From Octopus sinensis (lineage: Eukaryota), in contig NC_043005.1 of NCBI RefSeq assembly GCF_006345805.1, positions 40,300,001-40,364,000 on the forward strand: 64,000 nucleotides of DNA, in the 5' to 3' direction. How positions within the stretch are numbered: the first letter of the stretch is position 1; every line of letters begins with the position of its first letter. The notes beneath the pieces were generated by a model that did no database searches, was not told the DNA's origin, and worked only from the letters and a program-made list of their open reading frames with translations. This document shows, one piece after another, positions 580 to 63,640 of the stretch. Position numbers and translations under genes: made by a program.

Positions 580-1540
580 TTATTTACATTTGACGGATAT
601 TTGTCCTCATCTTGTTTCGGCTGATATACCCTCCAGCCTTCATCAGGTGTCTTGAGGAAATTTCAAACCTGGGTTCTCATTCCAAAGGTATCTTTCGTTG
701 TCGCCGCTGTAGCAGCAGCAGCAGTCTGTCTACCCTATGTGAAAAGCCTCTCCGAAAAGATACAGAAGATATGCGGCCCATATGACATCAGGACAGTATT
801 CAAAAGTAATACAACACTTTGCAAATATCTCCTTCGAGTAAAACCACCCATAGAAGAGAATATGACCAAGAACTGCGTGCACTCCATACCATGCAGCTGT
901 GGTAGGCGAAACATGCTGCCCCCTCAAAATAAAGGTAGAGAAACATTGCAAAGCTGTGACACGGGGAGATATTGATAAAACAGGTATAGCTGATCATGTA
1001 TGGAAAAATGGAGCCCACCTCCCCCTATGGAATGAAGTTAAAATAATAGACAGAGAACACCACTGAAAAATATGAAAACTAAAAGAAGCAGCACATATGC
1101 TAGGACACAACAACCTCCTAAGCAGACTGGGTGCAGATATGAACAGCATATGGGAACCAGTATTAAAGAAGGATAGGAGATTATTAGATTTATAAGCCCT
1201 AAAATTCACTCCATAATTGCCCATGAGCATATGGCGTAGTGGTTAAGAGCTACTAACCCCAAGATTCTGATTTTGATTCCGGGCAGTGACCTGAATAATA
1301 ATAATGATGATGATGATAATGGTTATGGTGGTGGTGGCAGCAGCAGTGGTGAAGAAGAAGACGACGACGATGACGCCACTGCCGACAATTGTCTTAGAAA
1401 TGAAAACCCAGGTTTGAAATTTCCCCAAGACACCTGATGAAGGCTGGAGAGTATATCAACCGAAATGTGTTAACAAACAAGATGAGGACAAATATTTGTA
1501 AATAATGTACATAATTCCTCATCTCTTAGATATAGAACTG
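580..1540 (+). mobile_element. 5'-truncated Penelope-like element (GIY-YIG endonuclease remnant) with inverted pLTR
   Basis: Frameshifted reading LPYVKSLSEKIQKIC..NCVHSIPCSCG..IADHVWKNGAH..KLKEAAH..WEPVLKK (~724-1195) is the PLE endonuclease C-terminus. 580-690 is the reverse complement of ~1395-1510, and the right copy has an extra ~30-bp tail. Confidence 0.85.
1430..1471 (+). ncRNA. Damaged type-I hammerhead ribozyme in PLE pLTR (second damaged copy on - strand at ~613-651)
   Basis: acac-CTGATGA-a-ggctg..caacc-GAAA-tgtgt; the inverted copy has a perfect stem II (ggctg/cagcc). Stem III and the cleavage triplet appear deleted in both. Confidence 0.55.
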
Positions 1541-2132
1541 AAAGACTCCTCAACTGAGAGGAAGGGTGGTATTGAGAGAGGTGAGTTTGTGCCAGGTGAT
1601 GAAAGCTTAAACTATGATAGAGGAACTGAAACAGGTGTCTTGCTGTGGAGTAGATACATGGCTACCGCAGTTGGGGAGAGAGAGAAAGATGTTGATGTGC
1701 CAAGATGTACCCTCAAGATTGAAGGAGGTGGGTGTAAGTGGGGTGGTACAGAGGATTCACAAGAGTGCAAATGGGGAAAGGGGAAGAGAAGGGTTGCAGT
1801 GAACACTGTATACCAACATTTTGTTGGTATACAGGAAAGAGGGAGTCTAGCAATCACATCTAATGTCTTGAGAAATCCCATCTCTTTTAAAAATCAATGA
1901 GGTACCTTTTAAATCAGTTTTGGAAGAGATGAAGAAGCTAAAGTGACAAAGGTATAATTTGAATCTGAGAACTTTTTACAAAGTATTCACTGCTTTGCCT
2001 GTCACTCAGATACAGTAAGCTGTAATTGAAAAAAGCAGAATAATATAATGAATTCTTAAATAATTTTAACAGAAATAAGTATAAGTTTCTTTTTATTTTA
2101 TTAAAAAAAAATCTTTTCTTCATATTTTTCAG

Positions 2133-2416
2133 GCCTGCTGAGTGATCTGGGTTTAAGGTATTTGGCTGCCAAACTTGGCAAAGATTGGTTTGCAGTTGGT
2201 CTCCAGTTGGGCTTACAACAAGCTGACATTGAAAGAATCCAACTTAACCATCCTTCTGACTCTTTCAAGCAAATCTTTACCCTCTTAGTTCTGTGGAGGG
2301 ATAACAACAGGGGTAATTCCAATAGAATTGCAGAACTACTAAGCGCCCTGGAAATCAGTGAACTGAATGCGATAGTGGCAGAGCTAAAGAAGAAATATGC
2401 CATTGAGGACAGTTAA
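2133..2416 (+). CDS. Terminal coding exon encoding a C-terminal death domain
   Basis: Polypyrimidine tract plus AG acceptor at 2131-2132 (phase 1). Open frame LLSDLGLRYLAAKLGKDWFAVGLQLGLQQADIERIQLNHPSDSFKQIFTLLVLWRDNN..LLSALEISELNAIVAEL..* matches the death-domain pattern (LG.DW..L...LG....I..I.......Q...LL..W). Confidence 0.85.
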
Positions 2417-2707
2417 TCTAGGTGAGTCACTAATTAGATCTTGGATTTTCGTATATGAACAAAACAAAAAAAAAGCATGCACATTCACATATGCATACAT
2501 ATGCGTGTGTACGCTTTTTCCTGATAATACAGTGACAATAACAGTTGGTACAACTGGAATAATGTATAAACACTCTTGTAAAGACATTGATTACCATAGG
2601 CACATTCCAAAAAAATACCAATACTAGAGTTGTTTTTATCAAAAAGCAAGTGTGTTTTCTGTGATGATTTGATTAGCAGTGCTGAGTTTTACAATTCTGT
2701 AAATATT

Positions 2708-2921
2708 CATTTCTATTCTATGCCCAAGGCCCAAAATTTTGGAGGAGGCAGAGGTCAGTCGATTAGATCAACCCAGTATGCAACTGGTACTTAATTTATC
2801 GACCCCAAAAAGATGAAAGGCAAAGTCGACCTCGGCAGAATTTGAGCTCAGAACACAAAAACAGACGAAATACCACTAAGCATTTCACCCGGTGTGCTAA
2901 CGTTTCTGCCAGCTCACCGAC
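2708..2921 (-). mobile_element. tRNA-derived SINE with Deu/Nin-like core (family B), 19-bp TSD
   Basis: Minus strand head gagctggcagaaacgttagc, B-box-like gagctcaaatt, core gtcgactttgcctttcatc..ggggtcgataaattaagtaccag. TSD ttacaattctgtaaatatt at 2689-2707 and 2922-2940. Confidence 0.85.
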
Positions 2922-2934
2922 TTACAATTCTGTA

Positions 2935-61000: not shown

Positions 61001-61300
61001 GGTTCGTTCCTGTTGTTAGAGTACCTTGTGTATGAGTGTTATTCACAGTTTCATACTTTCCTGAGTATACGGAAATACTCTTTTGTTATTCTGGCTTTAG
61101 TCACAGTACCAATGTATGCAACATTCTCATAGATTCCAAGGTACTTGTAGTTTTCATAATTAGAGATATGGGAGATAGACAAGCCGTTGATGTGCAAGTT
61201 CTCTGTCTGGTCGACAATCTTTCCTCGGTTGACTATTATTTATTAGTATTTATCTTGCACAAACTCCATTCCTATATCTCGTGAGAATGTTGTGACTAGT
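58093..61300 (-). mobile_element. Decayed Neptune-like Penelope element (RT, Cys linker, GIY-YIG)
   Basis: FYGLPKIHK (~59345), SFDVTNL (~59085), IYRQIKGTAMGTRFASSYA (~58900), CGDNKCGTC linker, LIYCITCPNCKENYIGET, terminal FIKKLSPKLNV*; 5' limit approximate. Confidence 0.88.
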
Positions 61301-62291
61301 TTTGTCTCTTGCTGTTGATCATATTATCAGAATATAAATTTTGGTCATCACCAAAAAATGTGTGAGTGACATTAATTTTATTCTTATCTGCATATCTCAG
61401 CATGTAGCCTTGGCATTATTTTAACAGGCTGACAAAGGATTCACTGCCATTACAAGCAGTATATGCCTGTTGATAGCTTAATTCTGTTTGTAACAATAAG
61501 TATTGCTTTAATTGCTTTAATAGTTGTCACAGGTTACTGTGTGGACCATGCTGTGGTCAGTCTTTCAATAGCATTCGCTATAGAAAGTGGTAGTTTGGCA
61601 ATGTGTAGTATGTATGTATACATGCAGACACGCGCACACACACACACACACACGCGCGCACACATACATTTACGTACATACATCCGTATATATATATATA
61701 TTTATATATATACACACACACATGCAAGTGATGGGACAAACGAAAGAAAGTAGCAAGCACTCAACACATTTAACAGGATTTAGATATAGTTTTAATAACA
61801 GCTACAGTCAGCTCCTTGAGAATTCAAGTTTCATGTGCACGTAGAACACATAGATCTTATTAGATGTTAGAAACATCTAATGAGATGTACGGGTCTATAC
61901 GAAGCACCTCACACAAGGTGAATCCGTACTGGAAGAAAAACTAGAGAGGTAACACAAGATATTTCTAAACTTCTAAGACGTAAACTAAGATGCATAAGTG
62001 ACTTTCTCTTTTCTTCTGTCAAAATATAACTCGCTACCTCTTCTTCTCTTCACTGTTAAAGATAATGAAAATAGAAAAAAATCGATCGTATTTAAACCTA
62101 ATTTTAATTTTAACTTTAAATGGCTCCGAGGCTTTCCTCTCCCTGCCTCTATCTCTTCGCACCTTTCCCCACTGTTAAAAGCGAAAAAACAAAAGCTACA
62201 CAAATAAACAAAAAATCCCGAAAAGAAATCGATCGCATTTAATTCTTATAACTTTCAAATGATATAGATTAATTTCAAGTTCTCAAGTTAT

Positions 62292-62336
62292 GTTGTATTG
62301 ACGAGCCCAGAATGAGGGAGAAACGGCGTTATCTAA
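62292..62336 (+). ncRNA. Decayed hammerhead-like motif
   Basis: TTGACGA-gccc-agaatga-ggga-GAAA-cggcg-TT; two deviations and no clear stem I. Confidence 0.3.
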
Positions 62337-63243
62337 AACTGCTACAACTACAGGAATATCCAATAAATGGATTTTATGAAAATATGGAAACATCATATAC
62401 CCTTTCACTAATAGGAAAAAGATCTTTCATGATGAGAAGAAAAAGAAAAGATAAAATATAAACCATGAAGCGGCTCCCTCCCCTTAAGGATAATGTATAC
62501 TCACTCTGTCATCTCATAGTCTCTCTCTCTCTTTCTCTCTCTCTCTCTTTCTCTCATTTCCTCTCTTGCTCCATAAGCAAAAATAAGTAGCAGCAGCTGT
62601 AGTTCCCAGTCAAGTAGCCACAGTTGTGTGACAATTTTGAGAGAAATTCATGATGGATTCTACAGGTTTATGATTCTATTGGTTATCTTAGGTGACGTAG
62701 TATTAAATGCTATCAAAGCACCAACTATTTTCGTTATTTTCAGGGCCTTATCTTCAGACAGAATGCTGGCAGGATGCTGGCGGCACTTTAGTGGAAGGTT
62801 GCGGCATAGTATGTTCAACGATATCAGTTTCATGTGTTAGGAACAGCACATGGTGGGAAGGGATGTTGGCCCGAGTCAATAGCTTAATCACCGATCGGTG
62901 TAGTCTGAATACATGCGAGGCAACGATCTTTACGTGTGAGTGACGTAATTTGATGGTATTGAGTTACAATTGTAGTTGCATGATTAACTACTGTGGGCTT
63001 TAGTTTATACGGTCCAGTACACACTCGCACATGCATACATGCATGCGTATGTGTGTGTATGTATGTGAATGTGTGCGTGCGTGTGCGAGCGATATACATG
63101 CATACAAACATATGTATCTATGTAGGTGGGTAGGTGGGAATGTCCTATTAGCAAATGAAATGTGTGATGGTAATTAAATAATGCCAAAAAATTTTCCAGA
63201 TTCCTGTTTTGTTATATATATATATATATATATATATATATAT

Positions 63244-63640
63244 ATACATAAATTATTAGAGAGTCATCCACTATGTGGATAACTCTAGTGCTAAAATAGC
63301 TCCGAAGCAACCACAGAAGATCCGTTCCAACTAGAATCAACACACATTTAACTGAAGGAAAGTGAAATACAACGAATAAAATAGATTGACTTTAATCTAT
63401 TTTATTCGTTGTATTTCACTTTCCTTCAGTTAAATGTGTGTTGATTCTAGTTGGAAACGATCTTCTGTGGTTGCTTCGGAGCTATTTTTAGCACTAGAGT
63501 TATCCACATAGTGGATGACTCTCTAATATTTATGTATAAATTTGTATTTCCTCCGTAGTTTTTTGTGCTAAGCCACTTGGTGTTAAATTGACGGTATTAT
63601 TAAATTAATATCGATTTTTCACCCTCATTATAATTATAAT
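63244..63640. mobile_element. Young fold-back element between (TA)n tracts
   Basis: ~145-bp arms (63244-63387 and 63394-63538) are near-perfect reverse complements; ~100-bp tail on the right arm only. Confidence 0.85.

What the first reader, a model, noticed from the sequence alone, without database searches (positions are those of the whole stretch)
580..63640. Dense population of (TA)n-embedded, hammerhead-bearing fold-back mini-elements sharing one architecture
Seen: five sequence-unrelated inverted-arm elements (580-1540, 14530-15900, 15917-16276, 29073-29975, 63244-63640). In the four with a recognisable hammerhead the arms are head-to-head with 3' ends outward. All five have a 30-100-bp tail on only one arm, and four of the five sit in (TA)n. 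Single-arm relatives lie at 16650-17480 and 42698-43235. At least six distinct hammerhead designs occur in 64 kb. Established: Penelope-like elements carry hammerheads in their pLTRs and often leave an inverted pLTR lacking the tail. The GIY-YIG-coding copy at 580-1540 links this architecture to PLEs. Inference: this is a diverse, microsatellite-targeted family of PLE-derived or retrozyme-like mobile ribozymes whose insertions also create long dsRNA hairpins.
Basis: partly seen in the sequence, partly recalled or inferred. Interest (0 to 1): 0.8.

Follow-up and report, generated by a model that had tools for sequence, protein, structure and literature searches.

The report
Penelope retrotransposon ends with retrozyme hitchhikers
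These fold-back pieces in TA repeats are mostly the cut-short ends of a known group of jumping genes (Hydra-type Penelope retrotransposons) that carry predicted self-cutting RNA motifs, and one is a protein-less repeat unit with the same insertion pattern that likely borrows their enzymes to move.

Summary
All five fold-backs and both single arms are real and belong to multi-copy families. An eighth element (26887-27738) was missed.

They are not one mini-element family. Six families (14526, 15917, 16430, 26887, 29073, 42698) are 5'-truncated 3' ends (pLTRs) of Hydra-clade Penelope-like retrotransposons: other copies join them to RT + GIY-YIG ORFs with Hydra motifs. The 580-1540 copy is an unrelated Poseidon-type remnant, outside TA, with a 12-bp target duplication. 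Inverted pLTR, one-sided tail, hammerheads and (TA)n targeting are published for this clade, including an octopus member.

Two details were not found in the papers searched:
- 69 of 73 curated fold-backs have exactly one tailed end, none has two, and both arms come from the same variant. This fits two reverse transcriptions primed from the two ends of one cut.
- The 63244 element is a piece of an ORF-less 492-nt tandem hammerhead unit (retrozyme-like). It and a 533-nt sister insert with the same signature, a genomic footprint of retrozyme mobilisation by Penelope enzymes.

Cleavage, transcription, dsRNA and raw-read support are untested.

The parts
568..1552 (.). E1: Penelope/Poseidon-type fold-back remnant. 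Arms 578-687 (-) and 1393-1540 (+, with ~25-nt tail), broken endonuclease piece 727-1190 (+), 12-bp target duplication at 568 and 1541, not in TA
   Evidence: family fold-backs in 3 of 40 arbitrary stretches
14526..15900 (.). E2: head-to-head pair of Hydra-clade pLTR/3'UTR ends. Junction near 15482, tail about 15831-15900, hammerhead cores mutated in both arms, a common short repeat inserted at 14891-15249
   Evidence: tail runs into the ORF start with MRWK in L181; ORF-bearing fold-back L182
15917..16271 (.). E3: fold-back of a short subfamily of a young Hydra-clade family. Tailed arm 15917-16121 (-), short arm 16122-16271 (+), type I hammerhead with predicted GUA cleavage after 16175
   Evidence: full-length parents L258, L259, L262; 859-aa open frame in L253
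16430..17478 (+). E6: single tail-less arm (3'UTR + hammerhead, predicted cleavage after 17442) ending in (TA)n
   Evidence: endonuclease ORF upstream in L186
26887..27738 (.).
   Evidence: full-length pLTR-ORF-pLTR parent L339
29073..29975 (.). E4: fold-back of Hydra-clade 3'UTR ends, intact hammerheads in both arms (29094 -, 29880 +), tail about 29902-29975, (TA)n on both sides
   Evidence: RT+GIY-YIG ORF colinear upstream in L121 and L123
42698..43240 (-). E7: single tailed arm of an older family (82-85% identity); hammerhead 5' half ambiguous
   Evidence: Hydra-type ORF ends 1.0-1.2 kb upstream of the arm in 2 of 20 loci (L290, L305)
63244..63638 (.). E5: fold-back fragment of an ORF-less 492-nt tandem hammerhead unit (retrozyme-like). 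Short arm 63244-63394 (-), tailed arm 63395-63638 (+); both begin just after the predicted cleavage site

Best explanation
Six of the eight elements are 5'-truncated ends of Hydra-clade Penelope-like retrotransposons lying in (TA)n, one is a Poseidon-type remnant, and one is a protein-less tandem hammerhead unit that is likely moved by the same kind of enzyme; the fold-backs likely form when both DNA ends of one cut prime reverse transcription of the same RNA variant at two fixed start sites. SHOWN: links to RT+GIY-YIG ORFs; two fixed 3' ends per family, about 70-95 nt apart; one tailed and one short end per fold-back; either arm can reach further 5'; the two arms of one insertion are more alike than arms of different insertions; E5 and its sister have no ORF over 46 aa and show the same ends. 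INFERRED: the GIY-YIG endonuclease opens both strands in (TA)n. One 3'-OH primes cDNA at the tail end and the other at the site 70-95 nt upstream, both downstream of the hammerhead (as shown in vitro for a lizard PLE, PMC11167929). Each cDNA stops at a variable point and the two are joined head-to-head. When the second end is simply joined to TA, a single arm results. For E5 the template would be a multimeric or circular RNA, which gives 1-5 units per insertion. The hammerheads are predicted to cleave RNA and may release monomers, but many copies extend 5' of the cleavage site, so uncleaved RNA is likely a common template.
For: ORF links. Hydra motifs: compared with PMC8557442 section 11 and its Hydra-1_Obim entry. 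Bimodal 3' ends in 6 of 6 families. One tail in 69 of 73 curated fold-backs, 4 short/short, 0 tail/tail (P about 1e-16 against 0.5), and 16 of 16 in the E5 sister family. Tail-less arm longer in 32, tailed arm longer in 23, equal in 14 of the 69. Within- versus between-insertion arm divergence was lower in 6 of 6 families, e.g. E3 0.9 vs 2.5%, E4 0.4 vs 3.0%, permutation P 0.0002-0.016. E5 units 0.22% within vs 0.48% between insertions. Hammerhead stems differ between families and subfamilies while pairing and core persist.
Against: The loci are top-scoring matches, not a random sample. Eleven of 84 raw rows were dropped, including all 8 tail/tail rows (see full report). Arm lengths can be inflated by later insertions. 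Arm similarity could also come from gene conversion or assembly polishing. No autonomous partner with matching ends was found for E5. In vitro, both strands used either start site (PMC11167929), so the one-of-each rule is not explained by that study. Isolated hammerheads fold no better than shuffles (z -1.1 to 0.0, 6 of 6). No strand-change joint was listed in the 4 laid runs.
Confidence: 0.75

Rival explanations
1. Self-priming or snap-back: one strand folds back and is copied, so the short arm is a copy of the tailed arm (self-priming on an antisense template was proposed in PMC3846280).
For: Palindromic or near-equal centres occur (14 of 69 equal; E3 centres). It explains same-variant arms and the lack of tail/tail pairs.
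Against: It predicts that the tailed arm is never shorter at the centre. The tail-less arm is longer in 32 of 69, with clean cases where it alone carries ORF, 3'UTR or extra units (L184, L121, L011, L104). Each arm then holds sequence the other lacks, which needs two copies from the template.
Confidence: 0.12
2. Two separate RNA molecules from the same source locus are paired in one particle, possibly through the palindromic stem III of the hammerhead, and each is copied from one DNA end.
For: Stem III is palindromic in E3, E5, E6, E7 and E8. Dimeric hammerheads are described for PLEs (PMC4209133, passages). Both arms being full independent copies fits.
Against: With more than 1,400 first-look candidates per family, same-variant arms would need strict cis pairing. 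It does not by itself give one tail per insertion. E4 has a non-palindromic hairpin stem III and obeys the same rule.
Confidence: 0.1
3. The elements are non-autonomous fold-back DNA transposons (MITE-like) moved as whole inverted units.
For: Short E3 copies are similar in size (about 350-460 nt) with long inverted arms.
Against: Centres differ from copy to copy, ends are asymmetric, many copies are single arms, and arms run into RT ORFs.
Confidence: 0.02
4. The fold-backs are assembly chimeras (read fold-back artefacts).
For: Raw reads across the window's junctions were not seen. No strand-change joint was listed.
Against: Arms are diverged (80-82% in E1 and E2), outer flanks are unique, ends fall at two family-fixed sites, E1 has a 12-bp target duplication, and TA-joined loose ends of the E5 unit appear in contigs of runs X6 and X15.
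Confidence: 0.01

Closest known systems
Hydra clade of C-terminal EN+ Penelope-like elements (Craig et al. 2021, PMC8557442), including Hydra-1_Obim from Octopus bimaculoides
   Same: RT followed by GIY-YIG, RWK and DKT motifs, CxCX5C linker, no CCHH, hammerhead in the pLTR, (TA)n insertion, inverted 5'-truncated copy and one-sided tail.
   Different: Several distinct families here. Some have Asn-rich ORF inserts and long low-complexity 3'UTRs (units 5.6-7.7 kb for E3 against <3 kb described; E8 is about 3 kb). Tails are 70-95 nt rather than 30-40 nt. The Hydra-1_Obim hammerhead listed in the supplement differs from all window designs (compared by eye).
Non-LTR (animal) retrozymes (PMC7229834; bioRxiv 10.64898/2026.07.22.740005)
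   Same: ORF-less tandem units, one type I hammerhead per unit, low GC (32-33%), strongly self-paired when folded as circles; PLEs proposed as mobilisers.
   Different: Units are 492 and 533 nt (about 170-400 nt described). Arrays occur as head-to-head pairs in (TA)n with two fixed ends, which the passages I read do not describe. Circular RNA and cleavage are not shown here.
Poseidon PLE of Anolis carolinensis (Frangieh et al. 2024, PMC11167929)
   Same: Two adjacent reverse-transcription start sites downstream of the hammerhead define the tail; both target strands are cut and extended; AT-rich targets.
   Different: Different clade. No strand bias between the two start sites in vitro, whereas here the two ends of one insertion almost always use different sites.
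Penelope elements of Adineta vaga (PMC3846280) and opposite-strand hammerhead pairs in Schistosoma (PMC4209133)
   Same: Head-to-head inverted pLTRs, a tail on one of them, Asn-rich ORF inserts; hammerheads 100-700 bp apart on opposite strands.
   Different: Low copy number and target duplications there; the self-priming model proposed there does not fit 32 of 69 cases here.
Naiad PLEs (PMC8557442)
   Same: (TA)n targeting, inverted copies with tails, present in cephalopods.
   Different: Naiads have an N-terminal endonuclease and no canonical hammerhead; here the endonuclease is C-terminal and hammerheads are present.

Membership tests
Hydra-clade PLE (E2, E3, E4, E6, E7, E8) | Single ORF with RT and C-terminal GIY-YIG endonuclease | tested here: met
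   E3 parents L253, L258, L259; broken or truncated ORFs for E2, E4, E7, E8; for E6 only the endonuclease part was seen. Pfam gave no family for the E3 ORF; assignment rests on motifs and homology.
Hydra-clade PLE (E2, E3, E4, E6, E7, E8) | N-terminal RWK motif and DKG changed to DKT | tested here: met
   MRWK and DKA in L181 (E2), KWK and DKT in L253 (E3), QWK and DKT in L338 (beside E7 arms), RW and DKT in L339 (E8); region not held for E4 and E6
Hydra-clade PLE (E2, E3, E4, E6, E7, E8) | CxCX5C linker, no CCHH motif, CxxC/CxH around the endonuclease E and N | tested here: met
   CTCRDKSNC (E3), CNCPDKTTC (E4), CSCISAPEC (E6), CSCREKSKC (L338); CxxC present; CCHH not seen by eye. In E2 the linker was only partly readable and in E8 it was not seen.
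Hydra-clade PLE (E2, E3, E4, E6, E7, E8) | Hammerhead in the pLTR and insertion into (TA)n | tested here: met
   E7 hammerhead inconclusive
Hydra-clade PLE (E2, E3, E4, E6, E7, E8) | RT phylogeny groups with reference Hydra families | not tested
   Reference sequences were seen only in the paper's supplement; no tree was built
Naiad PLE | N-terminal endonuclease; no canonical hammerhead | tested here: not met
   Endonuclease is C-terminal and hammerheads are present
Penelope/Poseidon PLE (E1) | C-terminal GIY-YIG without zinc-finger linker; minimal hammerhead; target duplication | tested here: inconclusive
   82% protein match to an RT-bearing remnant in L124, minimal hammerhead in family copy L228, 12-bp duplication; clade label rests on recalled motif patterns, no tree
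Non-LTR retrozyme (E5 and sister) | Non-coding tandem repeat with a type I hammerhead in every unit | tested here: met
   492- and 533-535-nt units, longest ATG frame 41 and 46 aa, hammerhead once per unit (E5 core has C at position 4; the sister is canonical)
Non-LTR retrozyme (E5 and sister) | Transcription, self-cleavage and circular RNA | tested here: inconclusive
   Unit-length go-back joint in contigs of X1 and X6, which are RNA only by guess; tandem DNA gives the same joint. Cleavage cannot be tested with these tools.

The most novel reading that the evidence does not exclude
ORF-less, circle-forming hammerhead retrozymes (E5 and its sister) are actively inserted into (TA)n by Hydra-clade Penelope proteins through asymmetric twin priming: a dimeric enzyme primes one RNA at two fixed sites from the two ends of one break. 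This would give a direct genomic footprint of who mobilises animal retrozymes and a general mechanism for Penelope inverted repeats and one-sided tails.
Probability: 0.5. Interest if true: 0.65.

Novelty: new member of a known kind. Interest (0 to 1): 0.42.

Why it matters
The elements themselves are a known kind. Their number and youth (97-100% identical copies in E3, E5 and the sister family) turn two open questions into countable ones: how Penelope inverted repeats and tails arise, and whether Penelope enzymes mobilise animal retrozymes. Earlier support for the second point was co-occurrence and pLTR phylogeny; here the retrozyme-like arrays carry the insertion signature itself. The genome may hold about 40,000 descriptor-passing hammerheads (95% range 15,000-89,000, from 6 hits in 399.7 kb). 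If fold-backs are transcribed they would be long hairpins for RNA editing or silencing, which was not tested.

Tried and rejected
- Rfam: the best 150 of 248 matches were almost all microsatellite-driven miRNA hits, with no hammerhead listed.
- The inverted-repeat tool was swamped by microsatellites.
- Pfam did not recognise the Hydra ORFs.
- Protein homolog search: 141 relatives, 120 listed at 30-49% identity, almost all unnamed.
- Folding of isolated hammerheads was no better than shuffles.
- No RNA holder listed on record, and no raw-read runs among the 24 listed. The contig lay could not show strand, starts or circularity and listed no strand-change joint.
- No ORF joined to E5 or its sister in 30 + 30 loci with 1.5-kb flanks. 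The Hydra remnant in L187 lies beyond a TA flank and another repeat and was treated as a separate insertion.
- E5 5' ends are mostly scattered over the unit rather than piled at the cleavage site, so cleaved monomer is not the only template.
- Naiad origin and a link through the 580-1540 copy were rejected.
- Earlier scan findings: nothing returned.
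Full report
SETTING. The window is G000:C9:40300001-40364000 of a 2.72-Gb animal assembly, 35% GC and rich in TA, CA and TATG repeats. The host looks like an octopod. This is my inference from recalled repeat landscapes and from the likeness of the ORFs to a published octopus element; it was not tested.

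1. OBSERVATION. Self-BLAST and reading of the sequence confirm the five head-to-head fold-backs and two single arms. A relaxed type I hammerhead descriptor gives 5 hits at 4 loci in the window and none at score >=12 in 40 shuffles. In 40 arbitrary 10-kb stretches (399.7 kb) it gives 6 hits, 5 of them at score >=12, against 1 in total over 8 shuffles. The window is thus about five times denser than average (P=0.011). The window copies of E1 and E2 have damaged cores. E7's hammerhead is ambiguous at its 5' half. E5 carries none because both arms begin 1 and 8 nt after the family's predicted cleavage site. Each of E2-E8 has 1,417-2,927 first-look candidates in the genome, of which 40 were scored per search; these are not copy numbers. 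E1 was not searched genome-wide; its family occurs in 3 of the 40 arbitrary stretches. Of 267 distinct arms of E2-E7 in the loci held at that time, 209 have (TA)4 at their 3' end, against 4.2% of random 31-nt windows.

2. WHAT THEY ARE. Extending longer copies shows coding parents. E4 arms follow a 1.6-kb low-complexity 3'UTR and a truncated RT + GIY-YIG ORF whose 5' break joins TA (L123, L121). E3 arms end 5.6-7.7-kb pLTR-ORF-pLTR units (L262, L259). In L258 the tail ends about 55 nt before the ATG, and L253 holds an 859-aa open frame. In L181 the E2 tail runs into a 5' leader and an ORF start, and L182 is a 4.3-kb fold-back with ORF in both arms. E6 is joined to an endonuclease ORF in L186. 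E8 has a 3-kb pLTR-ORF-pLTR parent in L339, and the window copy itself holds a broken endonuclease piece at 27104-27738. For E7 the link is weaker: an ORF ends 1.0-1.2 kb upstream of the arm in 2 of 20 loci. The ORFs show RWK-type, DKT, CxCX5C and CxxC motifs and no CCHH, the defining marks of the Hydra clade in PMC8557442 section 11. That paper's supplement lists Hydra-1_Obim with (TA)n preference; its N-terminal protein resembles the E2 ORF by eye. E1 is different: a Poseidon-type endonuclease piece (label from recalled motifs; 82% match to L124), no TA, and a 12-bp duplication at 568 and 1541. The window's E3 belongs to a short subfamily whose copies rarely reach more than about 60 nt upstream of the core, so it may be a true non-autonomous mini-element.

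E5 is a piece of a 492-nt unit that occurs in arrays of one to several units, often as two arrays head-to-head. A sister family of 533-535 nt, 62% alike over 328 nt, behaves the same way. Neither has an ATG frame over 46 aa, and both fold well as circles (z -5.5 and -7.7 against 30 crude shuffles). Their hammerheads sit at the same place with different but paired stems I and II and the same palindromic stem III. The unit is held in contigs of 4 of 4 laid runs from 4 studies. A unit-length go-back joint appears in X1 and X6, which are RNA only by guess, and TA-joined loose ends appear in X6 and X15. Tandem DNA gives the same joint, so this does not show a circle.

3. HOW IT LIKELY WORKS. In all six families tested, 3' ends pile at two sites about 70-93 nt apart, 22-161 nt downstream of the predicted cleavage site. 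One search gave 84 inverted pairs (72 tail/short, 8 tail/tail, 4 short/short). I dropped 11 rows: one spurious L182 row; nine E5 rows whose array runs off the fetched stretch or repeats a counted insertion; and L146, a sister-family locus. All 8 tail/tail rows are among these. Six of them resolve as tail/short in overlapping loci (L083 as L095, L084 and L101 as L096, L089 as L104, L187 as L097, L146 as L308); two (L093, L107) stay unresolved. The remaining 73 give 69 tail/short, 4 short/short and 0 tail/tail. The sister family adds 16 of 16 distinct fold-backs with both ends in view among its 30 loci. Four of the six queries lacked the tail and two included it, so query choice does not force this pattern, but the loci are best matches, not a random draw. 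Among the 69, the tail-less arm reaches further 5' in 32, the tailed arm in 23, and 14 are equal within 15 nt. Some small differences at palindromic centres are uncertain, and later insertions can inflate a side, but L184, L121, L011 and L104 are clean. Arms of one insertion are more alike than arms of different insertions in 6 of 6 families (7-19 loci each, permutation P 0.0002-0.016), and E5 units differ by 0.22% within and 0.48% between insertions. Frangieh et al. (PMC11167929) showed that a PLE protein cuts and extends both strands, that the tail is the stretch between two start sites, and that hammerhead cleavage is not needed for insertion. I therefore infer twin priming from the two ends of one cut on the same RNA variant, one at each site, with variable stops and head-to-head joining. 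Snap-back copying cannot give a tail-less arm that is longer than its partner. Against this reading: homogenisation by conversion or polishing could add to arm likeness, the in vitro study saw no strand bias between sites, isolated hammerheads fold no better than shuffles, and no biochemical or RNA evidence exists here.

4. COMPARISON WITH WHAT IS KNOWN. Inverted 5'-truncated copies and a one-sided tail are described as typical of PLEs (PMC8557442; PMC3846280). Opposite-strand hammerhead pairs 100-700 bp apart were noted in Schistosoma (PMC4209133). A U-U pair at the base of stem II is described for an axolotl retrozyme, and PLEs were proposed as retrozyme mobilisers (PMC7229834). A 2026 preprint argues from co-occurrence and pLTR phylogeny that retrozymes derive from PLEs and leaves mobilisation open (10.64898/2026.07.22.740005). 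What I saw of each paper: PMC8557442 passages, section 11 and supplement rows; PMC11167929 parts 1-2 of 4; the preprint part 1 of 5, passages and Discussion (its supplements were not seen and may bear on retrozyme arrangement); passages only for PMC7229834, PMC4209133 and PMC3846280; search listings only for the rest. Eight searches of the held library turned up no count of one-tail pairing and no retrozyme arrays with the PLE insertion signature. Subscription papers and Repbase are not covered.

5-6. NOVELTY AND VERDICT. New members of a known kind (Hydra-clade PLE ends), with one retrozyme-like passenger family and a quantitative insertion rule that are modestly new and testable. Interest 0.42. 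The most novel reading, asymmetric twin priming that also mobilises retrozymes, has probability 0.5 and would merit 0.65.

Noticed in passing
window 58160-60843 (-): Degraded PLE with RT and a GIY-YIG endonuclease preceded by a CxxxxCxxC finger (Neptune-type by recalled motifs); a hammerhead-like remnant lies near 58059.
   Followed up: partly
window 2105-2416 (+): Death-domain exon (Pfam PF00531, E 1.5e-9), so the fold-backs may lie in or near a host gene; gene extent not worked out.
   Followed up: no
window 20885-22373 (+): Broken transposase-like frames (weak DUF659 match, E 0.005; hAT-like by recall) with a 153-nt tandem duplication at the end.
   Followed up: no
window 25570-26886: 352/449-nt tandem duplication with TA runs directly beyond the 3' end of E8; not checked whether it arose with the insertion.
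   Followed up: no
L254:2788-5628 (+), L255, L256: A second young Hydra-type family with an open 946-aa ORF from the first Met and pLTR-ORF-pLTR layout, 53-54% identical to E3's RT; its hammerhead-like motif was seen by eye but missed by the descriptor.
   Followed up: partly
L253, L254, L112 ORFs: Long Asn-rich inserts between RT and endonuclease that keep the frame open, as described for rotifer Penelope (PMC3846280).
   Followed up: no
window 14891-15249, 5257-5656: A very common short interspersed repeat sits inside E2's left arm and recurs beside many fetched loci, often ending in TA runs.
   Followed up: no
window 2695-2924, 12074-12772, 39805-40626, 41441-41906, 48181-48352 and others: A dispersed family with a roughly 240-nt tandem unit, in both orientations; no hammerhead hit; identity unknown.
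   Followed up: no
L131, L140, L160, L177, L183, L109 and others: Different hammerhead families often insert next to each other in the same TA runs, as E2, E3 and E6 do in the window, which may explain local hot spots.
   Followed up: no
L213:1378, L221:199, L231:2305 and 8120: Further hammerhead designs in the arbitrary sample that match none of the window's families.
   Followed up: no
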